DNA of 64,000 bases from Candidatus Pacearchaeota archaeon (GCA_018304105.1 JAGVWX010000007.1:27973-91972), one strand, 5' to 3'; counted from the stretch's first letter, positions 51-59,615 are shown. Numbers and translations: made by a program. The notes: generated by a model not told the origin, from the letters alone.

Positions 51-680
51 TTAATCAGAAAGGACGACTGCGTTTGAGGTTGCGTTCAAATAAATCACTC
101 TCAAGCCGGAAGTTGTTCTGATGTTTCCTGTGAGGTTGACGTTGCTCTTGTAAGCTGTGACGGAATTGCCTGAACTTGTCGAGACGTTGAAGACAATGTA
201 GTAATCCATTATTCTGATTTCATTGATGCCGTCGGGGAGATATGCTTTGACGGTTGTTCTTGCCGGATAGCCGGAGTAAAAGACTGTTTCTGACTGGGAA
301 ACTATTTTTTGTGAGAAACTTTCTATCTGGTTGAATTTCATTGTGTCTTTTATTTGTGATGAGTATGTGAGTGCGATGCCAAGAGCGGTTAAGACTATGA
401 AAAGGACGAAAGAAATTACTATGAGATATTCTGTGCTGATTTGTCCTTTGTTGAAGATATTTTGGAATTGTTTGCACCCACCCAACTCGCGGTCACGCTC
501 GGGTTGCTTGCTAATTCGCTCGCGTAACGCGCTCGCCCGCCCAGATAGTTTTGACTTGCAGTTAACTGACGAAGTCTCACGATATTCTTCGTGAGAGGCA
601 GCCAGGCAAGCTAAATTATTTCTCGCAAACAATTCTGGTTTTTCAACAGAATTATTTATTTGTCCTCTTTTGTTTTGCAT
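51..680 (-). CDS. Class III signal peptide (pilin-like) protein carrying an in-frame 73-codon repeat insertion
   Basis: KG/QISTE followed by a hydrophobic helix; MQNKRGQI start is duplicated upstream of the insertion. Confidence 0.8.
   Translation of the reverse strand: MQNKRGQINNSVEKPELFARNNLACLAASHEEYRETSSVNCKSKLSGRASALRERISKQPERDRELGGCKQFQNIFNKGQISTEYLIVISFVLFIVLTALGIALTYSSQIKDTMKFNQIESFSQKIVSQSETVFYSGYPARTTVKAYLPDGINEIRIMDYYIVFNVSTSSGNSVTAYKSNVNLTGNIRTTSGLRVIYLNATSNAVVLSD
439..666. mobile_element. MITE-like modular hairpin element (copy A1) with 9-bp target duplication
   Basis: atttgtcct at 439-447 and 658-666; tgttgaa...ttcaaca ends; modules shared with other intergenic repeats. Confidence 0.75.
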
Positions 681-743
681 AACTCTCGGAAGGAAAAGAG
701 ATTATTAAAGTTAGTGATTAGTCCGAAGGATTGTTTATACCTC

Positions 744-840
744 AATAGGACGCCAATTGAGAATGGCTGGCGTCTTGATTAGTTGGCTCACTTCGTTCGC
801 AAGTTATCATGCCGACTCCGTTAACCGATAAGTTGTGGGC
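744..840. repeat. REP-like hairpin module (AATWGGAC...GTCTTRATT + CTCACTTCGTTCGC)
   Basis: gacgcca...tggcgtc stem; related copies at 6090, 6306, 7972, 25915, 28961, 49097. Confidence 0.7.
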
Positions 841-930
841 TGTCTTTTATTATTTAAGTTTGATTTAGCCGATAACATACGATATTTTTGCTTTTATTAG
901 TTCTTTAACGAAGTTAGTTTACCAATAAAG

Positions 931-1038
931 TTTTAAAATAAAACTTAAGAAATCCTATAATAATTATAGTTAAGATTTTAAAATAAAACTTAAGAAATCC
1001 TATAATAATTATAGTTAAGATTTTAAAATAAAACTTAA
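931..1038. repeat. 45-bp tandem repeat, ~2.4 copies
   Basis: ttttaaaataaaacttaa recurs at 931, 976 and 1021. Confidence 0.9.
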
Positions 1039-1100
1039 ATGTTTACATGCATTTACATGCAATTAGTTAAAGTTTTAAAGGTTCATGCTTACTAATAATT

Positions 1101-1658
1101 ATGAAAAGCAGGCTGACTTTCTTAAGTGTATTTTTAGTGTTTTTGGTAATTGTTGCGCTCGCCCACATGTTCATTCAGATTGCCTTTTACGGAACGGGAT
1201 ATAAGGGTTTTGCGGAGAAAGGGATAACTGGGCTGGCAGTTGAAGGGAGTGAGGCGAATGGGCTGCCGATTTCGGAGGTTATTTTGTTTTTGGAATGGGG
1301 CTTGATTTTTTTGGGAGTGGTTTTTGTTTACGCGAAGCATAATATTGACTTGAAGAAGGAGTACACTTATTTGGCTTTGCTAAAAGAAAAGAAACATTTT
1401 TCCGGGGGAACTGAGTTGGACAGGTTCTACGAACTTTTGAAAGAAATGAAACATTTCAGGCTTGCGACGGCTGCGAAAGTTTTTGATGTTGACACGGAAA
1501 TTGTAGAAGACTGGGCGCAGAGTCTTGAGTCGAGCAAGGTTGCAGAGCTGACTTATCCTAGAATTGGCGGGCCGGAAATTAAATTAATTGAAGGAGCTTT
1601 ACCAAGGAATGAAGAAAGTGAAGAAGGTTCGGAAGAGGAAAAGGAGGCAAAAAAGTAG
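1101..1658 (+). CDS. Membrane protein with 2 TM segments and a C-terminal winged-helix-like region
   Basis: Two hydrophobic segments; first gene of the pilus operon. Confidence 0.7.
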   Translation: MKSRLTFLSVFLVFLVIVALAHMFIQIAFYGTGYKGFAEKGITGLAVEGSEANGLPISEVILFLEWGLIFLGVVFVYAKHNIDLKKEYTYLALLKEKKHFSGGTELDRFYELLKEMKHFRLATAAKVFDVDTEIVEDWAQSLESSKVAELTYPRIGGPEIKLIEGALPRNEESEEGSEEEKEAKK

Positions 1659-1662
1659 GTGA

Positions 1663-6001: not shown

Positions 6002-6089
6002 ACTTTGTTAATCTTGTTTGCCTTTTCTTTAATTAGACTTGCCATTTCTGAAACTGCAAGTCTTAATTATTGCTCGCTTAACTCCGCCC

Positions 6090-6383
6090 AATAGGACGCC
6101 AATTTTTGCGGCTGGCGTCTTAATTATCTGCAACTTCGCTCATTTCATTCTGCTCGCGATCAAGCGTCTAAGTAATCTTATTTTTGTGACGCTTGGTACG
6201 CTCGCTTGTTGCCTTAGTTATCGGCAATGGTTGGTTTTCAACAGAATCGTCTGGTTAGTTAAGTTTTTATATTGTTTCTGGCTTGTAGTATATAAAATAC
6301 GGGCGTTGTGCGGCGCAATAGGACTCGCTTTTCAAGAAGATGCGAGTCTTGATTTGCTGATGCGCTTCGCGCTAGCGCCGCAA
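6090..6383. repeat. Cluster of REP-like hairpin modules
   Basis: gacgcc..ggcgtc and gactcgc..gcgagtc stems; outer gcggcgc..gcgccgc. Confidence 0.7.
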
Positions 6384-7971: not shown

Positions 7972-8130
7972 AATTGGACGCCAGACTTGATGGTTGGCGT
8001 CTTGATTATTTTACTTGCTTCTTTTGTTTTAATTGGACTCGCAATTTTGGAAGATGCGAGTCTTAATTCTATTAGCTCACTTCGTTCGCTTAATTATCAT
8101 ACTGTCATCTTGTGCTGAAGGGTTGTGGGT
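7972..8130. repeat. Tandem REP-like hairpin modules
   Basis: Two AATTGGAC hairpins, ctcacttcgttcgc, and a tatcatactg..tgtgggtt tail shared with ~53980. Confidence 0.7.
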
Positions 8131-8197
8131 TTTCTATTAATTGTTCTAAGGATTAACTTTTAATATCTGAAGTTTCTAACTGATTATGAGGTAATAT

Positions 8198-8667: not shown

Positions 8668-8945
8668 ATTAGTGATTTGGAAAGATTCAATGATGAGCAG
8701 GTTTTGGAGTCTGACAAGGATTTCACCTTCGGTGAAAAATTCTGCTCACAAGTTGACTCGCAAATTGTTGTTCGCCCACCCTCCCAAAACAGGCTCGTCA
8801 ACTTGCTCACTCTTCCATCCCAACCCCGCCTCCATAAAGTTAGTAAACTCGATAGACTTCGATGGAGGTTTCTATGAAAAAAGATATTACTCGCAGGTTA
8901 TTTTCTAACAAAATTTCTTATAACTTTTTGAGACGTTCTAACAGG
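8668..8945. mobile_element. Probable repeat-family insertion in the signal peptide of the VWA pilin-like gene
   Basis: gcccaccctccc and cccaaccccgcc..agttagtaaac modules between MELKKK (8650) and GAFFSTD; boundaries approximate. Confidence 0.5.
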
Positions 8946-13010: not shown

Positions 13011-13170
13011 CAGCTTTGTTGAAAATCTTTTAGAATTATTTTACTCGCAGCCACGCTCGAAATTTATTTATTGAGTGCTCTCGCGTAACTGCTCGCCCTA
13101 TCCTCGCCCAAATTCCTTCGCCCCTAATCAATATAATAAAACCTACAACTTAGACTTTTTTAACAAAGCT
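13011..13170. mobile_element. MITE-like modular element (copy A2)
   Basis: agctttgttgaaaa...ttttaacaaagct inverted ends; ctcgcagccacgc..gcgtaac module. Confidence 0.7.
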
Positions 13171-13272
13171 CGAAGACGATAGAAACATTTTTTCATTCTT
13201 GAAAAATCAAAATATTTATAAACTGGAAATCCTTTTGGAAACCAGATAATCAATAATCAAAAGGAGGTAAAT

Positions 13273-13696
13273 ATGAAAACAAAAGGACAGGCTTGTCATT
13301 GGAGTTCTGGCTATTTACTTTAGGCCTAGTAATCTTGTTTCGGAGACAGCTTTATTAAATGCGCCATTCAATGTGGTCTCTCAAGTTGTCACACCGACTG
13401 AATTCGATGTGGAATTTAGAAATGGGGGTGGAGAAACTTATACTACTATGAGTGTTGCTTTTACTTTCAATAGTCCAAGCACAATAACTTGTGTGCCGAC
13501 GCCGGTTTTATCAGCTACCCAAGGTGGTACGGCAGTAACAACGATGACGTCTGGACAAACAGCGTTTATACGTTGCACTTATAGTGCTGCGCAAACTGCA
13601 GGGACTACGATTGATGGAGACTTAGCCATAACATACACAAGGCCTGGTGCTACTATACCTTTGACTACAACAGGGACCGTCACAGGAAAGGCATAA
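13273..13696 (+). pseudogene. Pilin gene with frameshifting deletion in the N-terminal helix
   Basis: SD aggaggt + MKTKGQA, then VIGVLAIYFRP... continues in another frame; most of the pilin helix is absent. Confidence 0.7.
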
Positions 13697-16167: not shown

Positions 16168-16518
16168 TTATTTGATATAGCTTATAAACCTTTCTAGCGT
16201 CGCTGCGTATTCTTTCAGTTGATTGAGATTTATATTTACGATTTTATCTCGGTAAGTTACCTTGAGGTTCACGCCTTTTCTGAATTCGTTTTCGCGGAAA
16301 ATGCTTTTCAGCTGGATTAGTTTTGCTCTCGGCGCATCCGGAATTGGTTTCCATTTTTTATCTTTTTTGGCTTTTGCGACTAGGCGGTCCATGCCTTGTT
16401 CTATCATATTTTTCCATCTTGAAAGTAAATTAATAATTACGTCACAAGTTTTTGTGTATTTCAGACTTACGTAAAGAAGATGGTCGGCGCTTATTTTTTC
16501 TTTTATGATTGCTTCCAT
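16168..16518 (-). CDS. Conserved hypothetical protein
   Basis: ADHLLYVSLKYTKTCDV N-terminus; co-oriented with minD. Confidence 0.65.
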   Translation of the reverse strand: MEAIIKEKISADHLLYVSLKYTKTCDVIINLLSRWKNMIEQGMDRLVAKAKKDKKWKPIPDAPRAKLIQLKSIFRENEFRKGVNLKVTYRDKIVNINLNQLKEYAATLERFISYIK

Positions 16519-16598: not shown

Positions 16599-16741
16599 GG
16601 AGATTAGTTGAAAATCTTTTTAATTAATTATTTTGCACCCACCCTCCCGCCCAGATTGTCCGCAAAGCTATCGCTTTTCGGTAATTCATTGCAAAATAAT
16701 ATGTTTGTCTGTGACTTTTTCAACAAAGACTCTGGGAGATT
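16599..16741. mobile_element. MITE-like modular element (copy A3) with G4 motif
   Basis: gttgaaaa..ttttcaac ends; ggagatt at 16599 and 16735; cccaccctcccgccc at 16638. Confidence 0.7.
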
Positions 16742-18589
16742 TTAGATTTTCTTTAATTTTCTTGCGAGATTTTCTGTTTCGTTTAAGAGAGATTCAATTT
16801 CGTTTAGTCCTTGAAGCCAGAAATCTTTTTTTGAAATGTCAATTCCAAGATTTAAGAAGATGTTTTTTGGAGAGTCTGAAGTTCCCGCGGAAAGGAACTC
16901 TTTGACCTTTTCTATGAACTTAGGATTTTGTTTGACTTTTGACTGGAGGGATTTTGAAATCAGCTCGCCCGAGACGTAAGAGTAAACGTAGAAAATGTAT
17001 CTGAAGTGCGGGACGTAAATCCACCAATTGTCCGACGATGAAGTGTCGACGAATTCTCCCAGATATGAGGACATATGCTCTTTGAATAATTCTCCAATGT
17101 TTTCTTTTGAGAGGTATCCTTTTTTTCTGAACTCTCCATGGAGTTGGGTTTCAAAATTATAAAATGCAGTTTGTCGAAAGATTGAAGCGATTTCGCCGTT
17201 GAGTTTTTCCATGAGAATTGAGAGCCTTGTTTCTTCGTCCGATTCTTTAAGGAGCTCTTGCAAGACGAAGTCTTCCATGAAAGTTGAAGCGACTTCTGCC
17301 GTTGACTTCGGAGTTTCGAAATACAGCGAATGTTGTTTTTCTCTCATCAGCTCATTGTTGATGCCGTGACCGACTTCGTGAGCGATTGTTGTAACGTCTT
17401 TTAGGGAGTTAGTGTGATTTAACATTATGTAAGTCGGCTGTGTTATGAGCATGTGAGTGCAGAAAGCACCGTTTCTTTTTCCTTTTCTTGGAAATGCGTC
17501 AATCTGGCCGTTTTTCAGATACATTTCGAAAATATCCAGGAATTTTTTGTCTAAAGATGAGAAAGTTTTTTTGACAAGTTCAATCGATTCTTCGAATTTG
17601 TATTTGGCTTTTTTCTTTCCGTAAGGAATATTTTTTTCGTAATATTGAAGTTTTTTTAAACCGAGCAATTTAGCTTTGAGCTTGTAAAATCTTTTTGAAA
17701 TGTCGAATCGGGAAGTGACTGCTTGAATCACCGTGTCAACGATTTCGGTTTCGATGTCGTCGTCCAGATGTCTTGCCTGGTCTGCACGGGAGAATTTTCT
17801 CAGCGAGTCGTTTGTTTTTTTGTTTGAGAGGATTGCATTGATTTCAGGTTCTGCTATTTCGGCGTATTGTTCGAAAATTTCCATTAACGCTTTGTTTGCT
17901 TCTTTCCTTGTCTCTTGGTTTGTATCGTCAAGCAATCCGAGAAGGTCTGAGAAATTTTTTGTTTGTTTTTTCCCTTCCATCATTATTTCTCTTTCTTGTT
18001 TGGCTAACAAGCCAGAAGTTAGTCTTTCCCAGAAATCATGAGAAGTAGATTCTTTTAACGTTAAAACTTTTTCTTCGCCTTCTGACAAGAGATGTTTAGC
18101 TTCCTGGAAAGCTCTTTCTAGATGATGCTTGTAATCTTTGAGTTCTTCTGAAGAAAGGAATTTTTGCTGGTCTTTTTCTGGAATTTTAGCAATGTTAAGC
18201 ATGAAGAACTTTTTTGAATTTCTCAATTCTTTTTCGAGCTCTTCTATTTTGTTGAGCTTTGCTTTTATTTCCGGATTTGCCTGGTCTAATTCGTATTTGA
18301 GGGCGAAATAAAATCCAGGAGAGCCGGAGTTTCCGAAGTTTCTTGAAAGCTCCTCGAGTTCATCAAGAGATTGTTTTAGGATTTTTGGCTCTTGAAGATA
18401 ATCTTGCCTTTTGGACCATTTTTGAACAAACTTGGAGTTTGCTTGTTTTACCTTCTCGAGTTCTGTTTCTATTCTTGGGTCGTTGTCTGAATTGAGAAGC
18501 GGGGAAAGATCCCAAGATGTTTGCCACGGGCAAACTTCGCGACGTTTTCCGATGGAAACACGTCCAGATGTTTTTATTTGAGGAGCCAT
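16742..18589 (-). CDS. pepF: Oligoendopeptidase F (M3B)
   Basis: WDLS N-terminus, GKRNGAFC, HEVGH zinc motif, AEVAS, YVYSY. Confidence 0.95.
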   Translation of the reverse strand: MAPQIKTSGRVSIGKRREVCPWQTSWDLSPLLNSDNDPRIETELEKVKQANSKFVQKWSKRQDYLQEPKILKQSLDELEELSRNFGNSGSPGFYFALKYELDQANPEIKAKLNKIEELEKELRNSKKFFMLNIAKIPEKDQQKFLSSEELKDYKHHLERAFQEAKHLLSEGEEKVLTLKESTSHDFWERLTSGLLAKQEREIMMEGKKQTKNFSDLLGLLDDTNQETRKEANKALMEIFEQYAEIAEPEINAILSNKKTNDSLRKFSRADQARHLDDDIETEIVDTVIQAVTSRFDISKRFYKLKAKLLGLKKLQYYEKNIPYGKKKAKYKFEESIELVKKTFSSLDKKFLDIFEMYLKNGQIDAFPRKGKRNGAFCTHMLITQPTYIMLNHTNSLKDVTTIAHEVGHGINNELMREKQHSLYFETPKSTAEVASTFMEDFVLQELLKESDEETRLSILMEKLNGEIASIFRQTAFYNFETQLHGEFRKKGYLSKENIGELFKEHMSSYLGEFVDTSSSDNWWIYVPHFRYIFYVYSYVSGELISKSLQSKVKQNPKFIEKVKEFLSAGTSDSPKNIFLNLGIDISKKDFWLQGLNEIESLLNETENLARKLKKI

Positions 18590-18754
18590 TTGCTAATGAA
18601 AGCAGAAGAGTTTATAAAAATTGGTAATTCTGAGATGAAGATAATTAGAACAAAATAGCCAAAATATTTGTAATGCCGACGGTAATTACTGATAACGTTC
18701 TTGTCAGATGTCCCAGTATTTTGAGATTAATTTGGATATTTTTGTCTTTTGGTT

Positions 18755-19110
18755 TTGTTGAAAATCTTTTTTCGAGTTGGTTGCACCCACCCACCCGCCC
18801 AGATAGTTTCGATTTGTATTAATAAATCTCTCAAATCGAATCATTTGTCGCAATTCCACTATACAAGACACCTACGGTTTCTTCTATGAAATTTTCCCTT
18901 AGTATACTGCTCAGGGCTGGTGTGAAAAACCCTACTCGCAGCCACGCATCTTAATTGAATAAATTATTGGTAATGCGTAACATGCTCGCTCGCGACCACG
19001 TGCGAAATAATTTACTAAATACTCGTCACGTAGTGCGCTCGCCCTAATCATCCGAATCCACGCACTTCCAATCAATATAGTAAAACCTGCAACTTGGACT
19101 TTTTCAACAG
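18755..19110. mobile_element. MITE-like modular element (copy A4) with G4 motif
   Basis: tgttgaaaa..ttttcaaca ends; first ~98 bp match copy A5. Confidence 0.8.
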
Positions 19111-19139
19111 AGCATCATCTTTTAAGAAAATTATTCTAA

Positions 19140-19484
19140 TTAATCTTCAGATAATTTCATAATTGCTTCGGCGATGTCGCCTTTAGTTTCTTCGAGAGCG
19201 GAGCGGGCGTCTTCTTCGGAACTTGATGTTTTTTCTGCGACAAGTTTTATATCGTCTTCTGAGAAAGATTCCGCTGATTCTTCTTTTATGTCGCCGGTGA
19301 CTTGAAATGACTCCTGACCCTGCATCGTTATTTTTTGGATTGACGGATTTTCGATTACTATTTTTGAGCCGTCTGTCTTTTCAATAGTAACTCTTTCGGC
19401 ATCGATGTCTTCCTGGTTTATACCTAGCTGCTTCATCATGCCTTTCATTTTTGCGGGATTCATGCCGCCTAATCCTGGAAACAT
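19140..19484 (-). CDS. nac: Nascent polypeptide-associated complex protein
   Basis: MNPAKMKGMMKQLGI; C-terminal UBA-like GDIAEAI. Confidence 0.95.
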   Translation of the reverse strand: MFPGLGGMNPAKMKGMMKQLGINQEDIDAERVTIEKTDGSKIVIENPSIQKITMQGQESFQVTGDIKEESAESFSEDDIKLVAEKTSSSEEDARSALEETKGDIAEAIMKLSED

Positions 19485-23027: not shown

Positions 23028-23097
23028 TCGAGTTTAAATAATATTTTCTAACTCTTTTTTAATTTAGTGATGATAATACGAAAGCTAATGAGCCAAT

Positions 23098-23150
23098 ACT
23101 GATGAAGTCAACTTCTTTCAGTCGTTGAGGCAGCCGACCGACTTGCGAAT
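23098..23150. repeat. Hairpin module CTGAYGAAGTC-stem-GAGGCAGCC
   Basis: Near-identical copy at 59566; variants at 565 and 53773. Confidence 0.75.
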
Positions 23151-25914: not shown

Positions 25915-26020
25915 GCGGCGCAATAGGACACCCCTATTCGTGGCTGGTGTCACAAATATTTGACTCGCCGTTGGAATTGCTGCGAGTCTTAATTTGTTGG
26001 CTCATTGCATTTGCCGTGTG
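25915..26020. repeat. REP-like hairpin modules
   Basis: gacacc..ggtgtc and gactcgc..gcgagtc stems. Confidence 0.7.
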
Positions 26021-28438: not shown

Positions 28439-28468
28439 TTTTGGTTTATTTATTATTTGTTTTTTGAT

Positions 28469-28724
28469 TTGTTGAAAATCTTTTTTCGAGTTGGTTGCAC
28501 CCACCCACCCGCCCAGATAGTTTCGATTTGTATTAATAAATCTCTCAAATCGAATCATTTGTCGCATTAGGATTCCCACAAACTTTTCGCTTACAGCGAA
28601 AATCCCAACTCGCAGCCACGCTCGAAATCAATCAGGACATTACTCTCGCGTAACATGCTCGCCCTATCCACTATGCCACTTTACCCCAATAAATTAGTAA
28701 ACCAATATTTTGATTTTTTCAATA
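28469..28724. mobile_element. MITE-like modular element (copy A5) with G4 motif
   Basis: ttgttgaaaa..ttttcaataa ends; shares ~98 bp with A4 and the ctcgcagccacgctcgaaa module with A2. Confidence 0.8.
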
Positions 28725-28819: not shown

Positions 28820-29233
28820 TTTATAAGGTAAAAGTCACACAAAATAAGTATCCTAGGGTGTGTGTTGTGGTAACTGAATTAGTAGTTACAAAAGTAGAAG
28901 ACTCAGTTAGCGAATTAGGTAGTTTTCAGAGTCTTACTAGTGATAATTTTAAACGGTTAATGCAGCGCAATTGGACACCAATTTTTGCGGCTGGTGTCTT
29001 AATTGTTGGTCTCGCTGCGCTCGTCATGCGCTGCATTTTTTCTATCAAATTTTTTAAACAGGAGTCGTCCACACACACCCTAGGAACCACAACACACACC
29101 CTAGTTGGACGACTCTCTGTTTCTTCTTTATCATATTTTTTGGACGGGCTGCCTAGCCACAACACATACCTTGGGAAAACACACACCCTAGAATTAGGCA
29201 GCCCTGTTTTCCTTTTCTTTCAGGAGGTGAATT
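28820..29233 (+). promoter_or_regulatory. Structured repeat/anti-repeat leader of the giant surface-protein gene
   Basis: TATA-like tttataa at 28820; anti-repeat 28852-28871; repeats at 29069, 29086, 29157, 29178 in two hairpin loops; SD aggaggtga at 29222. Confidence 0.6.
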
Positions 29234-39624: not shown

Positions 39625-39760
39625 AATAGCTTCAATTTTCAGAAGTAAATAGTATAACAGGTTAACACGCCCGCAATTTATCTTCAGACTACTCTCGTTA
39701 ACATGCTCCCCTAATTCCAACACCCCTCTTTTCGCCTCGACCATAATAGTAAACTGATTA
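39625..39760. repeat. Degenerate copy of the modular repeat family
   Basis: aatagcttcaatt, ctcgttaacatgctcccc, ataatagtaaac modules. Confidence 0.5.
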
Positions 39761-48893: not shown

Positions 48894-49201
48894 TGTAACT
48901 AATCTAGAACGCTGTTGTTTAAATATATATAATGCAGAATAATGATTATTTTTTCATACGGCATAGCTTATATAGCGACTCCCTGCAGAGTGATGAACTG
49001 TAACTTGTGAAAGGTATCAGGCTTGTTTATATAGTGAATGATTTGAGGGGGACGAATTCTTTTGGCGCTTTAATAATTCATTTGTTCTCTTGTCTAAATT
49101 GGACTCGCTGTTCGAGGGACTGCGAGTCAGAATTTATTTGAGCTAACTTTTTATGTTTAAATTGGACTTGCCGTTGAGTATTGCGCAAGTCAAATCTGCT
49201 G

Positions 49202-49300
49202 GCAACTTCTTTATTGTAATTTTTTGGCGTTGTTTTTACCCGCCCACCCACCCGATGCGATATTGTCTTGAAAATATCATTCTTGACAATATCGCCTAAC
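49202..49300. repeat. 99-bp direct repeat, copy 1, with G4 motif
   Basis: Matches 53863-53961; cccgcccacccaccc at 49239. Confidence 0.9.
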
Positions 49301-49415: not shown

Positions 49416-49719
49416 TTATCCGCCGAGACCGCCCAAGAGGCTGCCGAGGCCGGGCAATAAACTGAAGATTTGCTTGAGGATATCAAAAAATCCGCCGCCT
49501 CCGCCTGAGCCAGACCCTGGAAAGGCAGTGCCATAACCGGATTCGCATTTATTATCTTGCGTGTTACAATGGCTTCCTGGGCCGCAGATTGAATTTTCTA
49601 AACCATTCAACGCATTTGTTTTCTTCGATTAAACAAGCGGTTCCAGTAAAGCAGCAGCCGCCTTGGTCGCAAACATTAGGCGAAGCGCCGTCTTTGTAAT
49701 TTGCGTTGCAAGCTACGCA
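49416..49719 (-). pseudogene. Frameshifted remnant of the 3' end of the Cys-rich protein gene
   Basis: CVACNAN..GGCCFTGTACLIEENKCVE / LENSICGPGSHCNTQDNKCESGYGTAFPG; +1 nt near 49604. Confidence 0.8.
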
Positions 49720-50745: not shown

Positions 50746-53499
50746 TTATCCAAGGCCAGGTATAAATTGACTTAAGGAACCGAGACCGCTAAATAAGTTT
50801 CCTCCTGGAAAAGCTGTGCCATATCCGGATTCGCATTTATTATCTTGCGTGTTACAATGGCTTCCTGGACCGCAGATTGAATCTTCCAGGCATTCTACAC
50901 ATTTGTTTTCCTCAATAAGGCAGGCAGTTCCTGTCCAGCAACAGCCGCCTTGGATGCTGCAGGTACTTTCAGAAGGAATCCTAGTACAGCCAAATGAGAC
51001 TTCTTCGTTTTTTAAATTTGCATTGCAGGCGACGCAAGTATGCGAATCGGTATTACAAATTGTTTTATCTTTTGCTTCTGCTCTTGCTTCTGGAGACATA
51101 GCAAGTTTTTGGTCTTCTGTCAGGGATTTGGCGTTAACTGCGCAGTCTGCATTAGTATCGCAGGATGTTGTACATTCGTTGTTCTTACAAATTTCACCTT
51201 TTGAGGCATCGCATTGCGAATTGTTTATGCATTGGATGCAGGTGAATGGAGTTGGAGAACCTGCGGGAGCGCAGAACTTCTTGTCTTCGTTTAAATTGCA
51301 GTCTGTTTCATAAAAGCATTCATAACACTGCCCTGGAGTTCCTCCAGTTGTTTGGTTTGCGCAGAACTTATCATCTTTGCAATCAGTATCTTTGGAACAG
51401 GGGTCAACGCATTTGTTGCATTCTTCATCGCATAATTTTCCTGTGCCTAATCTTGCACATTTTATTCTACCCCTGTCTGAAGTGGGGTCGCATTGCGCTG
51501 CAAGAGGCTTTTCTACGAATAATGTCGTGGAATATAAATCACTGTCTTGCGCGTTTTTCAATGGAGTTGATGGGTCGTCTTCAGTTGCCAGGTAGAATTT
51601 GTATTGGAAGTTGCCCCCTCCGAGAAAGCTTGAGAAGTCCATTGCCCAGGGCGGCCGGAAGTCTTCGAGTTTGAGAAGTTTTTGGTCGCCAGTTACAATT
51701 TTTGGAGTATAAGTCATACGGTCTCTGAGGAGAAGAGAATTTTGTTCAGTTAAGACGAAGACGAGGTTGCCTGCGTTTTCGCAACCTTCTGTTACTGCAA
51801 CTAACTTGACCGAGTCTCCGCACATCCAGTCTTTGTTGCCTACCCATCCTTTTATGACGCTGTCTTGTCCAAGAGGGTTATCAGACGCGCTCTGCCAACC
51901 TAAGCTGGAAACCTGGCAGGAGCGCGAGAAGACGCAGGTTTTGTAAGTGTTTGATTGAGCGTTAATGTCACAGATGTAATCTTCTCCGAATTCCGCGCAG
52001 TGGGTGCTGTTGTAGCATTCCACACAATTTTTAGTGACTGGGTCGCAGAGACTATTGTCGCAATCTGCGTTTTTGGAACATACCAATAATTTCTTGCAAG
52101 TGTTGTCTTTGGTGCAGAAATATCCTGGACCGATGTCAGGATTGTCCCGGCATTCTTTATCATCTGCGTCGGAGTCTTCATTGAAATGGCATTGTGCTGG
52201 GCCCGGTTTTATTACAGTCAATGTTGGAGAAAATGGTGATGCGACTTGGGGATTGGAACCTTCGACTATTGCTTTGAAAGTGTAATAAATTGGACCTTCT
52301 GAGTTTATTCCAGGGCCTGTTTTTTCAAACCATTCAGGTTTCCAGACGAAGTATTTGTAACCGTCTATGGGCTGTTGTTCGTTTTGGGAAAAGGTATATT
52401 TCAAGGTTGGATTGCTCTGGCCTTCCCAAATTTCGAATTTTACAATGTCCTGCTGGCAGCCGGCTGCTTTGACATACAAAGACAAGTCGCTGATTCCGCG
52501 AATGTAGTCGTAATCTGAAGAATCTGTGCTTGTACCGAGCCAGCCAGTGACTTCAGATTGAGTTTCGAGTTTTGTGTTAACCCATTTCGGCTCTGTTAAG
52601 TTGCAAGATGACGTTGATGCTAAACCATTGATTGCTGTGCACATTACTCGGCTTACGCCGTTAGAATCCTGGAATGGGCCCGACTTTTTGTTGAATTTAG
52701 TGGAGCCGCAATCACCCGTGTCCGAGATTTTTATGTCCCATACATATTGGTCAGTCGTTGGATTGTTGATGTTTGCTGTTCCAACACAGAAATTGAAGGG
52801 GGTGCCGCCTAAAAATGAATACACTGAATTTGCTCCTTCTTCACATTCGTGTTCTTCCGTATTGGGATATAAGTATGCAGTTTTTACGTATAAACTGCCA
52901 TTGGTAATCTGGCTTTCAAATTTGACGCAGAGCTTACTGAGGATTGTGCTGTAAAAGCCGGTGCCATAAAATGACTCTTTTTCTGTATAACCCGAAGGGC
53001 ATCGTGCTGAAGAAACTAATTGGATGAATTGGATGTCTTTGACTATGCCTGAGGTTGGTGCTGGGGGAGGACAATCGAGGCAGTTTGAAGTGTTTTCACC
53101 TTGAGCGGGTTCACAAATTTCGTCCCCGTCGCATATGTCTGGAATGTCTAAATAAATTGTGGGAACTGTATATTCATGTGGCTCTCCTGTTTTTACGTAT
53201 ACTGAATAAGGAACCTTGACTTTTTTCTGGAAATTGGCTGCGGTGACATTTATATAAAATTCATATGTGTTGTCTGGGGGTAGAGAAGGTATTGTTATGA
53301 TGGCTCTTCCTGCTGAATTAGTTGTTCCGTCCCAAATCCCCCCATTTTGTCTGAATACTTTGACTTGCGCGCCACTTATTGGGCTTTTTGGAGACTGACT
53401 GTTCTTGACATCAACGTTAAGATAAATTGATACGGCAGATACACTAGAAATTAAGAAGACTAGAATAATGCTGAAAAGTATAAATTTTTTTGTCCTCAT
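50746..53499 (-). CDS. Secreted Cys-rich repeat surface protein
   Basis: Signal peptide MRTKKFIL..; carboxypeptidase-regulatory-like N-domain; many CxxxxDC/CVEC repeats. Confidence 0.85.
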   Translation of the reverse strand: MRTKKFILFSIILVFLISSVSAVSIYLNVDVKNSQSPKSPISGAQVKVFRQNGGIWDGTTNSAGRAIITIPSLPPDNTYEFYINVTAANFQKKVKVPYSVYVKTGEPHEYTVPTIYLDIPDICDGDEICEPAQGENTSNCLDCPPPAPTSGIVKDIQFIQLVSSARCPSGYTEKESFYGTGFYSTILSKLCVKFESQITNGSLYVKTAYLYPNTEEHECEEGANSVYSFLGGTPFNFCVGTANINNPTTDQYVWDIKISDTGDCGSTKFNKKSGPFQDSNGVSRVMCTAINGLASTSSCNLTEPKWVNTKLETQSEVTGWLGTSTDSSDYDYIRGISDLSLYVKAAGCQQDIVKFEIWEGQSNPTLKYTFSQNEQQPIDGYKYFVWKPEWFEKTGPGINSEGPIYYTFKAIVEGSNPQVASPFSPTLTVIKPGPAQCHFNEDSDADDKECRDNPDIGPGYFCTKDNTCKKLLVCSKNADCDNSLCDPVTKNCVECYNSTHCAEFGEDYICDINAQSNTYKTCVFSRSCQVSSLGWQSASDNPLGQDSVIKGWVGNKDWMCGDSVKLVAVTEGCENAGNLVFVLTEQNSLLLRDRMTYTPKIVTGDQKLLKLEDFRPPWAMDFSSFLGGGNFQYKFYLATEDDPSTPLKNAQDSDLYSTTLFVEKPLAAQCDPTSDRGRIKCARLGTGKLCDEECNKCVDPCSKDTDCKDDKFCANQTTGGTPGQCYECFYETDCNLNEDKKFCAPAGSPTPFTCIQCINNSQCDASKGEICKNNECTTSCDTNADCAVNAKSLTEDQKLAMSPEARAEAKDKTICNTDSHTCVACNANLKNEEVSFGCTRIPSESTCSIQGGCCWTGTACLIEENKCVECLEDSICGPGSHCNTQDNKCESGYGTAFPGGNLFSGLGSLSQFIPGLG

Positions 53500-53505: not shown

Positions 53506-53612
53506 ATTGTCCACAAATATTTTGACAATATTTTCTACCCGCCCACCCGTCCAATGCGATATTGCCAAACATTATAAGCAATATCGCCCAATGTCAAAAT
53601 ATTCTTTTGGAA
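53506..53612. repeat. Degenerate G4-module hairpin repeat
   Basis: aatattttgaca..tgtcaaaatatt stem around cccgcccacccgtcc and gcgatattg..caatatcgc. Confidence 0.65.
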
Positions 53613-53862
53613 TTTATTATTTTATAGAGATGAAACTGCTATTTAAAGTTTGTCTTGATTGAGAGGATATTTGGCAGATTGGGCTTGCTTTGCCACGTCG
53701 AAATAGAACTCGCAAGCAGTCTTGATTATTGCCTGTCCCCGACCCCCCAATATGACTCGCCATGCTTTGCGAGAGACGAGTTCAATGCTTGCACATTGAG
53801 GCAGCAAGAGACGAGGTCAATGCTTGCGCATTGAGGAGGCAGTCAGCGAGTCAAATTTGTTA

Positions 53863-53961
53863 GCAACTTCTTTATTGTAATTTTTTGGCGTTGTTTTTAC
53901 CCGCCCACCCACCCGATGCGATATTGTCTTGAAAATATCATTCTTGACAATATCGCCTAAC
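53863..53961. repeat. 99-bp direct repeat, copy 2, within a larger repeat cluster (53700-54015)
   Basis: Matches 49202-49300. Confidence 0.9.
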
Positions 53962-54150
53962 TCCGCCCTGCCCAAAAATATCATACTGCCACCTTGTGCT
54001 GAAGGGCTGTGGGTTATTTATTTTTATTTTGTTGATTCTATAATTTTAAGCAGAATGAAATATCTGATTTGTCGGTTTAGTAACTTTTAATAATCCATGC
54101 GATATTTCAATGAGACGGATAATGATATGAATAATAATAAGAATAGCGAT

Positions 54151-56081: not shown

Positions 56082-56084
56082 TTA

Positions 56085-56321: not shown

Positions 56322-56614
56322 GTTTTCACAAGATACACAGAATGCACAAGTATATAAATTTTTTGATTTATTTGAGAAAATTGGTAAGTTAACAAGGCAT
56401 ATCGTCGCTCATGCTGCCCAAGAGTGCATAATTCAAATGTCCATCTGTAAATTGTATGTCTTATCGATTCTTTTTTCTTTCTTTGTTCATGAGAAGGCGA
56501 GGAAAATATTTCACGTTCTTCCGGGTCTTCCATAATTTCTCTTCTTTCTACCCCGTTGTAACCAAGGTCCCTAAGATTAGATACCTCTGCACGTAATGAT
56601 ATTCGGTTGCCCAT
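56309..56614 (-). CDS. Possible hypothetical protein
   Basis: ATG ORF; 3' end overlaps the antitoxin promoter/start, so it may be degenerate. Confidence 0.3.
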   Translation of the reverse strand: MGNRISLRAEVSNLRDLGYNGVERREIMEDPEEREIFSSPSHEQRKKKESIRHTIYRWTFELCTLGQHERRYALLTYQFSQINQKIYILVHSVYLVKTWQT

Positions 56615-56674
56615 AATTTTTTCATGGATACTTTTTATTTAAAGATTTATATAATCTGATTGTTTTATTGTGAC

Positions 56675-57142: not shown

Positions 57143-57555
57143 TATCCCTTTACATCAACAGAAGTTGTGTTTGAGTCCCCGTCCCTGTCAGTTACTTTTA
57201 ACCATATCTGATAGTTTCCCGGTTCTACTATATCGACGGTTTGTTCAGCTCTGGGCCAATAAAGTGTCGGATTCTCTTCACTCTGAGGGACTGCATATGA
57301 CCAAGAAAATTTTAAGCATGTTGTTTTTTTCACGTCATCCCTGCATCCAGGGTCGTCAGGGTCATATGAGTCATAACCAGTAAAACTCACTTGAAACGGG
57401 ACTTCTCCTTCAACTTGCCCCCGAATTACTCTGATTTGCGCGACGGGCGGTTGGTTATTACCATTTTGACTAATAATGTTTTCAATATTTGGAACACATC
57501 CAGCCATTATAATTGGAAGCATGCGCGTCAAACCACTTATTGTTCGATATCTCAT
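57139..57555 (-). CDS. PKD-domain putative lipoprotein
   Basis: IMAGC lipobox-like; NQPPVA..SYDPD..PGNYQIWLKVTDRDG. Confidence 0.78.
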   Translation of the reverse strand: MRYRTISGLTRMLPIIMAGCVPNIENIISQNGNNQPPVAQIRVIRGQVEGEVPFQVSFTGYDSYDPDDPGCRDDVKKTTCLKFSWSYAVPQSEENPTLYWPRAEQTVDIVEPGNYQIWLKVTDRDGDSNTTSVDVKGY

Positions 57556-57708
57556 AAAAAATCCATTAGCGGCTTGTTTAAAAACTTCCTAATTCTTATG
57601 ATTACTCTTCTAACTTTAAATAGTTTATCAAAAAACTCTATAGTCTCTTTCCAACAGTAAAGCCGCAAAGATAAAAACAATTAAAAACAAGTTTTCTTTA
57701 GGGATTTG

Positions 57709-59085
57709 ATGATGCGAACACACACGTGCGGGGAATTGAGAATTTCTGAAAAGGGGAATCATGTTAATCTTTGTGGGTGGGTTGACAAAATTCGGGCGTT
57801 TGGGAAAGTGAATTTTATTGACTTGCGAGACAGGTATGGAAAGACGCAGATTGTTGTGCTGGGAAAGCATGAACTGAAGCTTGAATATTGTGTGCAGGTT
57901 TCGGGAGAGGTTGTTGAAAGGAAGGACAAGAACAAAGACATGGAAACGGGAGATATTGAGATTTTTGTTAAAAAGGTTGAAGATATTAAAGTTCTGAACG
58001 AGTGCCCGTCTTTGCCGTTTAATCTTGATGACGAGAATGTTGACGAGGACATAAGATTGAAGTATAGGTTTTTAGATTTGCGGACTAAGAAGCTGCAGGA
58101 TAAGTTGATTTTGAAGCATAAGCTTTACAATGCAATTATGAATTACATGGATAAGAAAGGATTTGTTTATTTGGAGACGCCGATTCTGGCGAAGTCGACG
58201 CCGGAGGGGGCGAGGGATTATATTGTGCCTTCTCGCGTGAACCCGGGAAAGTTTTATGCTTTGCCTCAATCGCCTCAGATATTCAAACAGCTTTCAATGG
58301 TTGCGGGATTTGACAGATATTTCCAAATTGCAAGATGTTTCCGCGATGAAGACTTGAGGGCGGATAGGCAGCCAGAGTTTACGCAGCTGGATATTGAAAT
58401 GAGTTTTGTGGAAGTCGAAGACATTATTAATGAAATGGAAGGCCTGGTTAAGTTTGTTTGGAAGGAAGTTTTGCATGAAGAAATAAAGACGCCGTTTCCT
58501 AGAATTTCTTACACGGAGGCGATGAAGAAGTATGGGAGAGATAATCCTGATGTGAGGAAGAAAGGAGAAAAGTGGGGATTTACTTGGGTTGTTGATTTTC
58601 CGTCTTTTGAATGGAACGAGGAAGATGAAAGGTTTTACGCGGTTCATCATCCGTTTACTTCGCCTGAAGACAATGCTGATTTTTCTTCAAAGGAAAAAAT
58701 AAAGAAGATAAAAGCAAAAGCTTACGATTTAGTTTTGAATGGGAGCGAGATTGGCGGAGGTTCTATTAGAATTCACGATTCTAAAATTCAGAAAAAAGTT
58801 TTTGAGACGCTTGGAATTGGAGAGAAAGAGGCGCAGGAGAAATTTGGATTTTTGCTTAACGCTTTGTCTTACGGCGCGCCGCCGCATGGAGGGATTGCGT
58901 TTGGAATGGATAGAATTGCGCAGCTGATGTCTGGCTCGGACAATATTAGGGATGTGATTGCTTTTCCTAAGAATAAAGAAGCGAGAGATTTGATGATGGA
59001 TGCGCCATCTTCGATTAGCGAGGCGCAGTTGCGAGAGGCAAATATTAAGTTGGATTTGAAAGAAGAGAAAGGGAAGAAGAAATAA
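57709..59085 (+). CDS. aspS: Aspartyl-tRNA synthetase, bacterial type, lacking the GAD insertion
   Basis: MRTHTCGEL, STPEGARDY, FRDEDLRADRQPEFTQ, HHPFT, GAPPHGG. Confidence 0.96.
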   Translation: MMRTHTCGELRISEKGNHVNLCGWVDKIRAFGKVNFIDLRDRYGKTQIVVLGKHELKLEYCVQVSGEVVERKDKNKDMETGDIEIFVKKVEDIKVLNECPSLPFNLDDENVDEDIRLKYRFLDLRTKKLQDKLILKHKLYNAIMNYMDKKGFVYLETPILAKSTPEGARDYIVPSRVNPGKFYALPQSPQIFKQLSMVAGFDRYFQIARCFRDEDLRADRQPEFTQLDIEMSFVEVEDIINEMEGLVKFVWKEVLHEEIKTPFPRISYTEAMKKYGRDNPDVRKKGEKWGFTWVVDFPSFEWNEEDERFYAVHHPFTSPEDNADFSSKEKIKKIKAKAYDLVLNGSEIGGGSIRIHDSKIQKKVFETLGIGEKEAQEKFGFLLNALSYGAPPHGGIAFGMDRIAQLMSGSDNIRDVIAFPKNKEARDLMMDAPSSISEAQLREANIKLDLKEEKGKKK

Positions 59086-59089
59086 TTAA

Positions 59090-59431
59090 TCAATCTTTTA
59101 GCGGTGCATTTCGTTGGTAAGAAAGTTCTGCTTCTAATTCTTTGATTCTTGTTTGAGCTTCTGCATTTTGTGCTTGTGAAAATGCCAGATGAAGCGTTCC
59201 AATAGATAAAGCTCCTTCTGTTACGGCAGCAATCATTCTTCCCCGATATAATCCTTCAAGACCGAATATTTTTCTAACTTCTTCATCTGAAGCATCGGCT
59301 GCCTCGTAAAATTTATCGGCAGGTATTTGGAAACATTCTCTTCCGATGTGAACGTCGTAAACTGGTACAGCTTGTGGATTTTTTACTATTCTTATCGCAC
59401 CGCGATTATATAATTCTCTTGGAGTTGTCAT
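59090..59431 (-). CDS. Hypothetical protein
   Basis: ATG ORF convergent with aspS. Confidence 0.6.
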   Translation of the reverse strand: MTTPRELYNRGAIRIVKNPQAVPVYDVHIGRECFQIPADKFYEAADASDEEVRKIFGLEGLYRGRMIAAVTEGALSIGTLHLAFSQAQNAEAQTRIKELEAELSYQRNAPLKD

Positions 59432-59529
59432 TTTATTTTCTTATTTCGTTTATTTATAACTATTTAGATTATTGGGAATATTGGTTGTATGAGATTTCAT
59501 TTGAAGATATTGTCTGTGTAATACGCTAA

Positions 59530-59615
59530 CCCCAACTCCGCCTGCCCAGAAAGTTATCATCCAACACTGACGAAGTCAACTCCTTTTAGTCGTTGAGGCA
59601 GCCAGACCGACCTGG
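59530..59615. repeat. Modular repeat copy
   Basis: cccaactccgcctgccca and actgacgaagtcaac..gttgaggcagcc modules. Confidence 0.7.

What the first reader, a model, noticed from the sequence alone, without database searches (positions are those of the whole stretch)
439..59615. Window-wide family of modular, single-orientation hairpin insertion elements with no transposase
Seen: many intergenic gaps are built from shuffled modules. These are tgttgaaaa...ttttcaaca ends (A1 439, A2 13011, A3 16599, A4 18755, A5 28469), ctcgcagccacgc-stem-gcgtaac(a)tgctcgccc, ctgaygaagtc-stem-gaggcagcc, aatwggac-stem-gtcttratt, ctcacttcgttcgc, C3 tracts and a tatcatactg..tgtgggt tail. Stems vary while their flanks are conserved. 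Every asymmetric module I could recognise lies in the same orientation regardless of neighbouring gene direction. Some copies have target duplications (9 bp at A1, 7 bp at A3). Inference: a non-autonomous element that folds as ssDNA or RNA, grows by module nesting and spreads with a replication-strand bias. This recalls REP/RAYT or IS200/605 lagging-strand behaviour but matches no family I can name.
Basis: partly seen in the sequence, partly recalled or inferred. Interest (0 to 1): 0.8.

Follow-up and report, generated by a model that had tools for sequence, protein, structure and literature searches.

The report
Strand-locked nested hairpin mobile elements
A tiny groundwater archaeon carries about 80 small, nested, hairpin-forming mobile DNA pieces, some inside essential genes, that nearly all point the same way along the chromosome strand, most likely because an IS200-type transposase moves them as single-stranded DNA.

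Summary
Module profiles group into 83 elements: 73 lie on the G-rich strand, 2 on the C-rich strand, and 8 sit where local skew is too weak to call. Neighbouring gene direction plays no part.

The elements are mobile. Three intact genes (KEOPS Bud32, a flippase-like membrane protein, FtsY) carry them in frame. Orthologues in relatives are empty at the Bud32 and flippase sites. Nesting is shown directly.

"No transposase" is true only of the window. The genome holds an IS200/IS605 TnpA on contig C17. A same-population metagenome contig shows a second one in an assembly gap. That second copy is a 688-nt IS sitting precisely, without target duplication, inside a family member and in the family's orientation. 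Its right-end hairpin resembles the S module.

Best reading (0.55): these are PATE/REP-like derivatives and passengers of IS200-type elements, inserted as single strands at replication forks.

Unexplained: the commonest hairpin (R) pairs fully only on the opposite strand, and some shells have inverted ends plus 7-11-nt direct repeats. The closest published analogue is the PATE/SMR/MITE conglomerates of Haloquadratum. This scan noted similar strand-locked repeats before in other DPANN genomes.

The parts
439..666 (+). A1 composite element (448-657) with LE-like end, R 484-536, P 531-576 whose loop carries S 563-605, and right end TTTTCAACA 640-648. It is flanked by the 9-nt direct repeat ATTTGTCCT (439-447 and 658-666).
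744..848 (+). B-type composite: H hairpin 744-779, U 786-799, V tail 802-848
6031..6353 (+). Three H hairpins (6031-6067, 6090-6124, 6317-6353) and a weak R-like hairpin (~6148-6207) in the gap between two + strand genes
7972..8136 (+). B-type composite: H 7972-8006, H 8031-8067, U 8075-8088, V 8092-8136
8703..8739 (+). Solo Q hairpin
13011..13175 (+). A2 composite: LE, R 13042-13096, C-tracts, RE 13122-13168
16599..16741 (+). A3 composite (LE-like, C-tract plus P 16642-16696, right end) flanked by the 7-nt direct repeat GGAGATT (16599-16605 and 16735-16741)
18750..19113 (+). A4 composite: LE 18754-18784, C-tract, P 18790-18853, enlarged Q region, R 18932-18989, second R 18989-19042 abutting the first, RE 19068-19112
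23096..23150 (+). Solo S hairpin 23101-23133 followed by the GACCGACTTG box
25925..25993 (+). Two H-type hairpins (second at 25958-25993)
28465..28722 (+). A5 composite: LE 28468-28498, C-tract, P 28504-28566, Q 28567-28606, R 28608-28662, RE 28684-28722. Its left 116 nt are 95% identical to A4.
28969..29003 (+). H hairpin upstream of the giant ORF
39666..39708 (+). Partial R with RE-like tail
49097..49299 (+). H 49097-49133, H 49160-49191, W (C-tract plus hairpin) 49216-49299
53516..54020 (+). W 53516-53591, tandem S units 53766-53848, W 53877-53960 (97% identical to 49185-49300), V 53976-54020
59540..59615 (+). Miniature element: C-tract, V-like start (AAAGTTATCAT), S hairpin 59569-59601, GACCGACCTG box

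Best explanation
The gaps hold a lineage-specific population of small non-autonomous mobile elements tied to IS200/IS605-type (Y1 HUH) transposons. They take three forms: solo hairpin units (R, S, H), miniature end-only derivatives (V...S, comparable to PATEs), and about 95-460-nt composite shells (A-type).

Proposed mechanism (inferred): an IS200-family TnpA supplied in trans recognises hairpins on one DNA strand. It moves the units as single-stranded DNA into the strand exposed at the replication fork, often just 3' of the C-rich tracts that the elements themselves carry. New units therefore land inside old ones (nesting), and every copy takes the same polarity relative to the replication strand.

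Copies that land in a gene in frame survive as extra loops.

Shown: mobility, nesting, the strand lock, the presence and polarity of the transposases, and insertion of the IS without target duplication.

Inferred: that TnpA moves the small modules, that GC skew marks replication direction, and that the lock arises at insertion.
For: (1) Strand lock. 73 of 75 callable elements lie on the G-rich strand (binomial p 1.5e-19; 8 more are uncallable). In five relatives the count is 34 G-rich, 8 C-rich, 11 uncallable among 53 elements in 48 fetched stretches.

(2) The lock is independent of transcription.
- Genes split 569:572 between the strands, and GC3 skew is +0.28 and +0.25 for co- and anti-oriented genes.
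- Repeat-bearing gaps are equally common between ++ gene pairs (39 of 245) and -- pairs (38 of 208).

(3) Mobility.
- Bud32 orthologues in G010, G015, G017, G011, G005 and G014 lack the ~73-aa insert after DLTTSNMIW.
- G006, G007 and G013 carry different inserts at that same site.
- The flippase-like orthologues in G019, G009, G012 and G020 lack residues 176-242.

(4) Young and lineage-restricted. The R covariance model finds 59 copies here, 42 in G007, 22 in G009, 12 in G006, 5 in G019, 2 each in three more genomes, 0 in 12 other same-genus genomes, and 3 weak hits in 40 genomes outside the genus.

(5) Transposases.
- TnpA-1 is at C17:109622-110107 (Pfam Y1_Tnp 80.8 bits; NF033573 83.5 bits against a cut-off of 55).
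- TnpA-2 is at L276:3464-3925 (NF033573 98.3 bits). It lies in the gap between MAG contigs C11 and C4.
- The TnpA-2 IS (688 nt) sits between a C-tract and an R unit inside an A-type element. A paralogous element at C17:52612-52902 is contiguous at that point, so the insertion is precise and leaves no duplication.
- Both tnpA genes are sense on the G-rich strand. Of 14 tnpA loci, 8 are on the locally G-rich strand, 1 on the C-rich strand, and 5 are uncallable (strands, locus skews).

(6) The right-end hairpin of the TnpA-2 IS shares the S module's architecture and flanks: AACTGACG, variable stem, GAG.C.G.C.

(7) Y1_Tnp is frequent in this genus (13 of 20 relatives, often multi-copy and decayed) and rare in the rest of the order (3 of 20).

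(8) No TnpB, DDE_Tnp_1 or IS110 family gene was found in the MAG. The one rve gene has no matching ends.
Against: (a) R, the commonest module, pairs fully only on the complement of the strand that carries the tnpA sense strand. There are 96 G-U cells on the complement that are A-C on the top strand. Mean folding energy is -17.2 against -10.6 kcal/mol in 56 of 57 copies. IS200/IS605 transposases are known to act on top-strand hairpins.

(b) A-type shells have ~15-25-nt imperfect inverted ends. At least 7 of about 21 carry 7-11-nt flanking direct repeats (5 of 19 at 7 nt or more against a null of 8.5%, plus A1 and A3). Neither feature is expected of IS200/IS605 transposition.

(c) G009 (95% complete) has 22 R copies and no detectable Y1_Tnp. 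Several genomes with Y1_Tnp have no R.

(d) Module profiles do not hit the flanks of the 13 other tnpA loci fetched from relatives.

(e) The S-to-right-end and V-to-left-end resemblances are short and were not tested statistically.

(f) Replication direction is unknown. There is no skew switch at the orc1/cdc6 gene.

(g) The lock is weaker in relatives (81% of callable elements).
Confidence: 0.55

Rival explanations
1. Orientation-dependent survival. Elements insert in either orientation, by whatever transposase. Copies whose strongly folding strand (R and W hairpins plus G-tracts) lies on the lagging-strand template stall forks or are deleted by slippage. Only one polarity then remains.
For: - The stable hairpins and the G3-tract motifs sit on the C-rich strand. 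Under the usual polarity that strand is the leading-strand template.
- G4-type motifs number 18 on the C-rich strand against 12 on the G-rich strand, although GGG is 2.2 times commoner on the G-rich strand.
- Direct repeats flanking some shells would allow precise slippage loss.
- The lock is leakier in relatives (34:8).
Against: - The bias in this genome is 73:2, and near-identical copies are also co-oriented: 95-97% identical pairs at 18737/28451 and 49185/53846.
- The IS200-like unit itself shows the same polarity.
- S and Q hairpins are symmetric on the two strands yet equally locked (S 20:0, Q 16:1).
Confidence: 0.2
2. The A-type shells are classical MITEs moved by a DDE transposase that is absent or unassembled here. 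Contact between that enzyme and the replisome biases their orientation. The hairpin modules are later passengers.
For: - Imperfect inverted ends starting TGT and ending ACA, and 7-11-nt direct repeats at several copies.
- Family-specific orientation bias of DDE insertion sequences relative to replication is reported for bacteria (PMC3971601, abstract read).
Against: - No DDE gene with matching ends was found. The single rve gene has unrelated flanks. PF01609 and PF02371 give no hit.
- Repeat lengths and their offsets from the ends are irregular.
- Solo R, S and H units are just as strand-locked.
Confidence: 0.1
3. The elements, or some modules such as R, are kept for a host function that reads one strand. 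Candidates are small structured RNAs, or replication or chromosome-architecture signals.
For: - Compensatory changes keep the R stem paired, with wobble pairs on one strand only.
- The strand lock resembles that of polar chromosomal motifs.
- A conserved TATA-like stretch lies on the complement of RE. This is my reading and was not tested.
Against: - Copy number swings from 59 to 0 within one genus.
- There are presence/absence differences at orthologous sites and insertions inside genes.
- No Rfam family matches, even at E up to 1.
- No RNA data were available.
Confidence: 0.1

Closest known systems
PATEs, SMRs and MITEs of Haloquadratum walsbyi and their nested 'conglomerates' around IS605-type transposons (PMC3119063; passages read)
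   Same: - An archaeal genome with many transposase-free repeats.
- End-only derivatives of IS200/IS605-type elements with near-terminal palindromes and no target duplication.
- ~110-nt repeats with inverted ends that insert into the palindromes of other elements.
- Frequent element-in-element nesting.
- Few or no intact IS200-type transposase genes.
   Different: - The host here is a ~1-Mb DPANN archaeon.
- Modules are smaller (about 38-60 nt).
- Nearly all copies share one polarity relative to GC skew. The passages I read do not mention orientation.
- Copies occur in frame inside core genes.
- Some shells do have flanking direct repeats.
- No sequence similarity to the Haloquadratum elements was tested.
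IS200/IS605 family (IS608, ISDra2): single-strand 'peel and paste' transposition into the lagging-strand template (as summarised in PMC6006769, passages read)
   Same: - Y1 HUH transposases of this family are present (NF033573 above cut-off).
- The ~690-nt IS has imperfect end hairpins with covarying stems.
- Insertion leaves no target duplication.
- Orientation is strongly tied to the chromosome strand.
   Different: - Most copies here carry no gene and are 10-20 times shorter.
- Many are solo hairpins.
- R folds best on the other strand.
- A-type shells have inverted ends.
REP/BIME/REPIN elements with RAYT (TnpA-REP) transposases of bacteria (PMC6006769, passages; PMC3116915, search listing only)
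   Same: - Short hairpins with conserved flanks.
- High copy number, solo or clustered in mosaics.
- A Y1 transposase gene flanked by such hairpins (TnpA-2 has R units on both sides).
   Different: - The transposases score as IS200, not RAYT (21 and 25 bits against a cut-off of 80).
- Units are all in direct orientation, not inverted doublets.
- They are not confined to extragenic space.
- PMC6006769 found only the IS200-type subclass in archaea.
Rickettsia palindromic elements (selfish DNA inserted in frame in protein-coding genes; recalled, with only a search listing seen)
   Same: Small palindromic repeats inserted in frame in essential genes that stay intact, in a reduced genome.
   Different: - Unrelated host.
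- No strand lock known to me.
- No transposase link.
- Sequence relation not tested.

Membership tests
IS200/IS605-derived miniature elements (PATE-like) | A Y1 HUH transposase of the IS200 family in the same genome | tested here: met
   TnpA-1: Pfam Y1_Tnp 80.8 bits, NF033573 83.5 bits (cut-off 55). TnpA-2: NF033573 98.3 bits. TnpA-2 lies in an assembly gap and is seen only on a same-population metagenome contig.
IS200/IS605-derived miniature elements (PATE-like) | No target-site duplication on insertion | tested here: inconclusive
   - Met for the TnpA-2 IS, by comparison with the paralogue lacking it.
- Met for the 45-nt R in the G014 Bud32 gene.
- Not met for several A-type shells, which have 7-11-nt direct repeats.
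IS200/IS605-derived miniature elements (PATE-like) | No terminal inverted repeats; subterminal palindromes related to those of a resident IS | tested here: inconclusive
   - The S module resembles the right-end hairpin of the TnpA-2 IS.
- The V start weakly resembles its left end.
- A-type shells have inverted ends.
- Module profiles do not hit the other tnpA loci.
IS200/IS605-derived miniature elements (PATE-like) | Orientation tied to the replication strand (active strand on the lagging-strand template) | tested here: inconclusive
   - The lock to GC skew is met (73:2).
- Which strand is the lagging-strand template could not be set.
- R folds best on the strand opposite the tnpA sense strand.
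REP/RAYT (REPIN) systems | A RAYT-class transposase | tested here: not met
   NF047646 scores 21.2 and 25.1 bits against a cut-off of 80.
REP/RAYT (REPIN) systems | REP units paired in inverted orientation and extragenic | tested here: not met
   Units are co-oriented, including tandem arrays of 3-4 R. Some lie in frame inside genes.
Classical MITE of a DDE transposon | Terminal inverted repeats shared with an autonomous DDE element, and a target duplication of fixed length | tested here: not met
   - Inverted ends are present.
- No DDE element with those ends was found.
- Repeat length varies from 7 to 11 nt, and repeats are absent from many copies.
Any curated RNA family (Rfam 15) | A covariance-model match | tested here: not met
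   Only a tRNA matched in the window, both at gathering score and at E up to 1.

The most novel reading that the evidence does not exclude
This Pacearchaeota lineage may hold the first archaeal counterpart of a REP-type system. An IS200-class (not RAYT-class) transposase would spread 40-60-nt hairpin units in trans with near-absolute replication-strand polarity.

The dominant unit (R) is flanked by G-tracts on its folding strand and is built to fold on the strand opposite the transposase's own. That would mean a second, undescribed step: bottom-strand or nascent-lagging-strand capture, or an RNA or cDNA stage.

The units are tolerated as in-frame loops in core proteins such as Bud32 and FtsY.
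Probability: 0.2. Interest if true: 0.8.

Novelty: new variant of a known kind. Interest (0 to 1): 0.6.

Why it matters
- DPANN archaea have tiny genomes that are thought to be streamlined. Here about 80 selfish elements fill gene gaps and even extend essential proteins.
- Orientation is almost perfectly tied to one DNA strand. This gives a natural read-out of replication direction in organisms that cannot be grown.
- It is also a clean natural case for studying single-strand transposition in archaea.
- The work shows that MAG contig breaks can hide the very transposase that explains a repeat family.
- The R hairpin's opposite-strand design is a concrete, testable puzzle.

Tried and rejected
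- Rfam at gathering score and at E up to 1: only a tRNA.
- ARAGORN found no tRNA in the window, although Rfam found an intron-bearing one.
- Precise empty sites in intergenic DNA of relatives: genes are only ~70-80% identical, so gaps do not align. I used insertions inside coding genes instead.
- Sequencing runs: 20 holders, none on record as RNA ('no RNA holder listed').
- Laying Logan contigs of 4 runs gave no clean empty-site joint. The joints seen are short contigs jumping between paralogous copies.
- Pattern scan of genome contigs for the left end: 115+ single hits in unrelated bacteria. The pattern was too loose, so these are chance matches.
- R pattern in viral contigs: 0 matches.
- R pattern in metagenome contigs: 39 loci. 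Those with module hits are all 99.6-100% identical to this genome. The rest are high-GC chance hits, so there is no independent population.
- Skew switch as a test of flipping:
  - None lies within a contig of this MAG that has elements on both sides.
  - The sharp switch in G009:C12 lies at a tRNA and at a rearrangement breakpoint relative to our C17.
  - There is no switch at orc1/cdc6.
  - rpoB on the G-rich strand is a single weak pointer. The SSU rRNA lies in a skew-less stretch. The L2 search found nothing.
- A crude count of all repeat pairs at least 95% identical and 80-500 nt long gave 18 co-oriented against 12 opposite.
  - It was not restricted to the family and includes coding paralogues and palindromic arms.
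  - The profile-based count (73:2) bounds how many family copies can be inverted.
- Open-frame asymmetry of the modules: none.
- Loci from the genome search are not flipped to the match strand. Rows mis-read for that reason were dropped: G003, G012 and G008, and G006 and G009.
- A script that searched the disk for DNA energy parameters timed out. It was rerun without that step.

Full report
**What is there.** The window is G000:C6:27973-91972 of a 1,055,307-bp, 23-contig MAG.

The repeat finder recovers them as families.

I use these labels:
- LE and RE: the TGTTGAAAA... and ...TTTTCAACA ends.
- P: a C-tract plus the CCCAGATAGT hairpin.
- Q: GGATTCCCAC-hairpin-AAAAGCCC.
- R: CTCGCAGCCACGC-stem-GCGTAAC.TGCTCGCCC.
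- S: CTGAYGAAGTC-stem-GAGGCAGCC.
- H: AATWGGAC-stem-GTCTTRATT.
- U: CTCACTTCGTTCGC.
- V: the TATCATAC...TGTGGGT tail.
- W: a C-tract plus the GATGCGATATTG hairpin.

Composites are not randomly shuffled. The usual order is LE-(R)-(W)-P-Q-R(-R)-RE ('A-type') or H(-H)-U-V ('B-type'). R, S and H also occur alone or in tandem arrays. Minimal A-type shells of about 95 nt (LE, C-tract, RE) exist in relatives.

**The strand lock.** Every contig has a strong GC skew, with per-contig values from -0.215 to +0.239.

The skew is not a transcription effect:
- With a crude ORF caller, 569 genes lie on the G-rich strand and 572 on the C-rich strand.
- Third-codon-position skew of the G-rich strand is +0.283 in co-oriented genes and +0.251 in anti-oriented genes.

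Orientation follows the skew:
- Iterated nhmmer profiles put the modules almost only on the G-rich strand: R 60:0 (plus 3 on skew-less C11), P 26:1, H 27:1, RE 23:1, W 18:1, Q 16:1, LE 16:0.
- A regex for S gives 20:0.
- Most of the 'wrong-strand' hits are weak matches to palindromic stems. The one solid inverted element is C5:6468-6602.
- Grouped into elements, there are 83 in all: 73 on the G-rich strand, 2 on the C-rich strand, and 8 where local skew is below 0.05. Twelve are in the window, all on the + strand.
- With no motif chosen in advance, intergenic regions compared all against all give 2086 co-oriented and 282 opposite HSPs.

Gene direction does not matter. Of 779 intergenic regions, 126 carry repeats: 39 of 245 between ++ pairs, 38 of 208 between -- pairs, 22 of 179 divergent, and 14 of 103 convergent.

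The modules are C-rich on the G-rich strand, so base composition works against the bias rather than for it.

In relatives I fetched 48 stretches around hits and scored 53 elements by local skew within 5 kb either side. The result is 34 on the G-rich strand, 8 on the C-rich strand and 11 uncallable (G006 4:0, G007 9:2, G009 17:6, G013 2:0, G014 2:0). The bias recurs but is less strict there.

**They are mobile and they nest.** Intergenic DNA of relatives is too diverged to align, but three intact genes carry elements in frame:
- KEOPS Bud32 (TIGR03724).
- A flippase-like membrane protein (TIGR00374).
- FtsY (TIGR00064) (family names).

Bud32:
- Orthologues in nearly all relatives match as two abutting blocks, query residues 52-157 and 231-307.
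- After DLTTSNMIW our gene holds a ~73-aa insert made of H, U, a V-like piece and R.
- G010, G015, G017, G011, G005 and G014 are empty at that site. G006, G007 and G013 hold other or shorter inserts there.
- At a second Bud32 site, our genome and G014 share an insert. G014 has an extra 45-nt R inside it, which gives the exact limits of one nested unit and shows no duplication.

Flippase-like gene: G019, G009, G012 and G020 lack our residues 176-242.

Other nesting:
- R also interrupts the C-tracts of P and W and abuts other R units.
- S sits in the loop of P, or between the V-like start and the GACCGAC box.

The R covariance model finds 59 copies here, 42 in G007, 22 in G009, 12 in G006, 5 in G019, 2 each in G003, G013 and G014, none in the other 12 same-genus genomes, and 3 weak hits in 40 genomes outside the genus. 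This is a young, clade-restricted expansion.

**Structure.**
- On the complement strand R forms a 10-12-bp stem. 95.8% of cells are paired, 6 of 12 pairs changed on both sides, 0 of 500 shuffles reach this, and slid controls give 15-43%.
- In the 57-copy alignment, 8 of 10 pairs show compensatory change.
- Two positions are U-G in 35 and 51 of 57 copies.
- Folding energies agree: -17.2 against -10.6 kcal/mol, with the complement better in 56 of 57. W also prefers the complement. Q and S are symmetric. H is slightly better on the top strand because of one wobble pair.
- The mutation bias that makes the skew would create wobble pairs on the other strand, so this asymmetry looks like a designed feature rather than decay. 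That step is inference.
- The C3 tracts beside R, P, W and V read as G-tract motifs on that same complement strand.

**Transposases.** The window has none. The MAG has:
- One Y1_Tnp gene, TnpA-1 at C17:109622-110107. It belongs to a ~683-nt IS whose ends are conserved, with covarying stems, in G007 (82% amino-acid identity) and G040. Its left end contains a GTTGAAA...TTTCAAC stem that recalls the A-type ends. This is a short resemblance and is not significant by profile.
- One IS481-like rve gene with unrelated flanks.
- One XerA-like recombinase.
- A split DGR-type reverse transcriptase.
- No TnpB, DDE_Tnp_1 or IS110 hit.

The decisive piece came from the metagenome scan:
- Locus L276 is 100% identical to contig C4 over 10,820 nt. 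It bridges C4 to C11.
- In the ~450 nt that the MAG lacks sits TnpA-2, 153 aa, IS200/IS605 family at 98.3 bits.
- It is the core of a 688-nt unit with imperfect end hairpins, lying inside an A-type element: LE, R, C-tract, then the IS, then R', P, RE.
- A paralogous element at C17:52612-52902 runs straight from that C-tract into R'. The IS insertion is therefore precise, without duplication, and 3' of a C-tract.
- Its sense strand is on the G-rich strand, as is TnpA-1's.
- Combining strands with locus skews, 8 of 14 tnpA loci are on the locally G-rich strand, 1 on the C-rich strand, and 5 are uncallable. These loci are short, so this is only indicative.
- The IS's right-end hairpin shares the flanks and layout of S. 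Its first bases after the C-tract weakly resemble the start of V.
- Y1_Tnp is common in the genus (13 of 20 relatives, many multi-copy or decayed) and rare elsewhere in the order (3 of 20).
- The closest relatives of TnpA-2 in 40 relatives are only 39-43% identical.

**Interpretation.** The best-supported account is that these are miniature derivatives and passengers of IS200/IS605-type elements. They would be moved in trans as single strands at the fork. That would explain the polarity, the nesting in C-tracts and the lack of duplications for R and the IS.

Against it:
- R folds on the opposite strand.
- A-type shells have inverted ends and 7-11-nt direct repeats: 5 of 19 at 7 nt or more against a null of 8.5%, plus A1 and A3. 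Their offsets from the ends are irregular.
- G009 has 22 R copies but no detectable tnpA.
- The direction of replication is unknown.

Rival accounts are orientation-dependent survival, a DDE-type MITE shell, and host function. They are scored in their own sections.

**Comparison with what is known.**
- Haloquadratum walsbyi carries PATEs (end-only IS605 derivatives, no duplications), ~110-nt SMRs with inverted ends that insert into PATE and IS605 palindromes, MITEs, and frequent element-in-element conglomerates, with few intact IS200 genes (PMC3119063, passages read). This is the nearest published picture.
- The lagging-strand coupling of IS200/IS605 elements, and the finding that only the IS200-type subclass occurs in archaea while REP systems are bacterial, come from PMC6006769 (passages read).
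- Replication-linked orientation bias of bacterial IS families is in PMC3971601 (abstract read).
- A MITE census reports high MITE density in some DPANN genomes. In its main text 'orientation' and 'leading strand' occur zero times (PMC11602168, term search of the main text).
- A survey of archaeal IS elements finds IS200/IS605 the most widespread family (PMC13343696, passages read).
- I found no paper describing strand-locked miniature elements in DPANN archaea in searches. Supplements were closed.
- Earlier notes of this scan describe similar strand-locked hairpin repeats in other DPANN genomes. The phenomenon is therefore recurrent in the scan's data and is not unique to this window.

**Limits.**
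- Gene calls are from a simple longest-ORF rule.
- Profiles were trained on this genome.
- Relatives were sampled around hits.
- E-values of the covariance model are rough.
- The script budget ended, so later steps used the fixed tools only.

Noticed in passing
whole genome (all 23 contigs); window 1-64000: GC skew is very strong and strand-wide: about +0.25 to +0.28 at third codon positions, with T over A. Yet genes are split evenly between the strands (569:572). There is no skew switch at the orc1/cdc6 gene (C19:8338-9543).
   Followed up: partly
G000 contig ends C11:1 and C4:10820; locus L276:3439-3912: The MAG breaks exactly around an IS200-type transposase gene that a same-population metagenome contig spans. 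Several other contig ends also stop in elements, so further transposase copies may be hidden in gaps.
   Followed up: partly
window 16742-18589 with neighbours 16168-16518 and 19140-19484: The M3 oligopeptidase gene, flanked by elements A3 and A4, is missing between its two neighbours in many relatives. The neighbours are adjacent in G019, G003, G006, G007, G012 and G001. In G009 the peptidase gene overlaps the downstream gene by one base, with no element.
   Followed up: partly
window 16298/16299 and 13292/13293: Contigs of other runs carry 75 extra letters at 16298/16299 (4 of 4 runs laid; inside the 116-aa gene; a multiple of three). They carry 50 extra letters at 13292/13293 (2 of 4 runs). 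The letters were not shown, so I cannot say whether these are elements.
   Followed up: no
G000:C5:14711-18076 (L094): A DGR-like reverse transcriptase split by one stop codon, with a 78-nt repeat pair at 78% identity nearby (L094:2356-2433 and 2790-2867). This looks like a template/variable repeat pair.
   Followed up: no
window 60819-61074: An intron-bearing tRNA (Rfam 56 bits; missed by ARAGORN) is preceded by two to three copies of a ~53-nt unit that repeats the tRNA's own 5' part. Earlier notes of this scan describe the same design elsewhere in this genome.
   Followed up: no
window 29234-39601: A giant ORF of 3455 aa with internal ~900-nt repeats (35530, 36433, 37327).
   Followed up: no
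window 49516-49666 and 50804-50953: Two ~150-nt coding segments 79-94% identical in neighbouring minus-strand genes (paralogous domains).
   Followed up: no
window 931-1040: An AT-rich tandem repeat of about 47 nt, roughly 2.5 copies, just upstream of the gene starting at 1101.
   Followed up: no
G009:C12 about 30.8-31.3 kb (L076): A very sharp GC3-skew flip (-0.52 to +0.62) sits at a tRNA gene and a P-like module. Relative to our contig C17 the left arm is inverted, so this is a rearrangement breakpoint and not necessarily an origin.
   Followed up: partly
G000:C11:4319-5485: An H hairpin lies inside an MnmA-like tRNA thiolase ORF, on the strand opposite the gene. Elements can therefore be read through in either orientation.
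   Followed up: no
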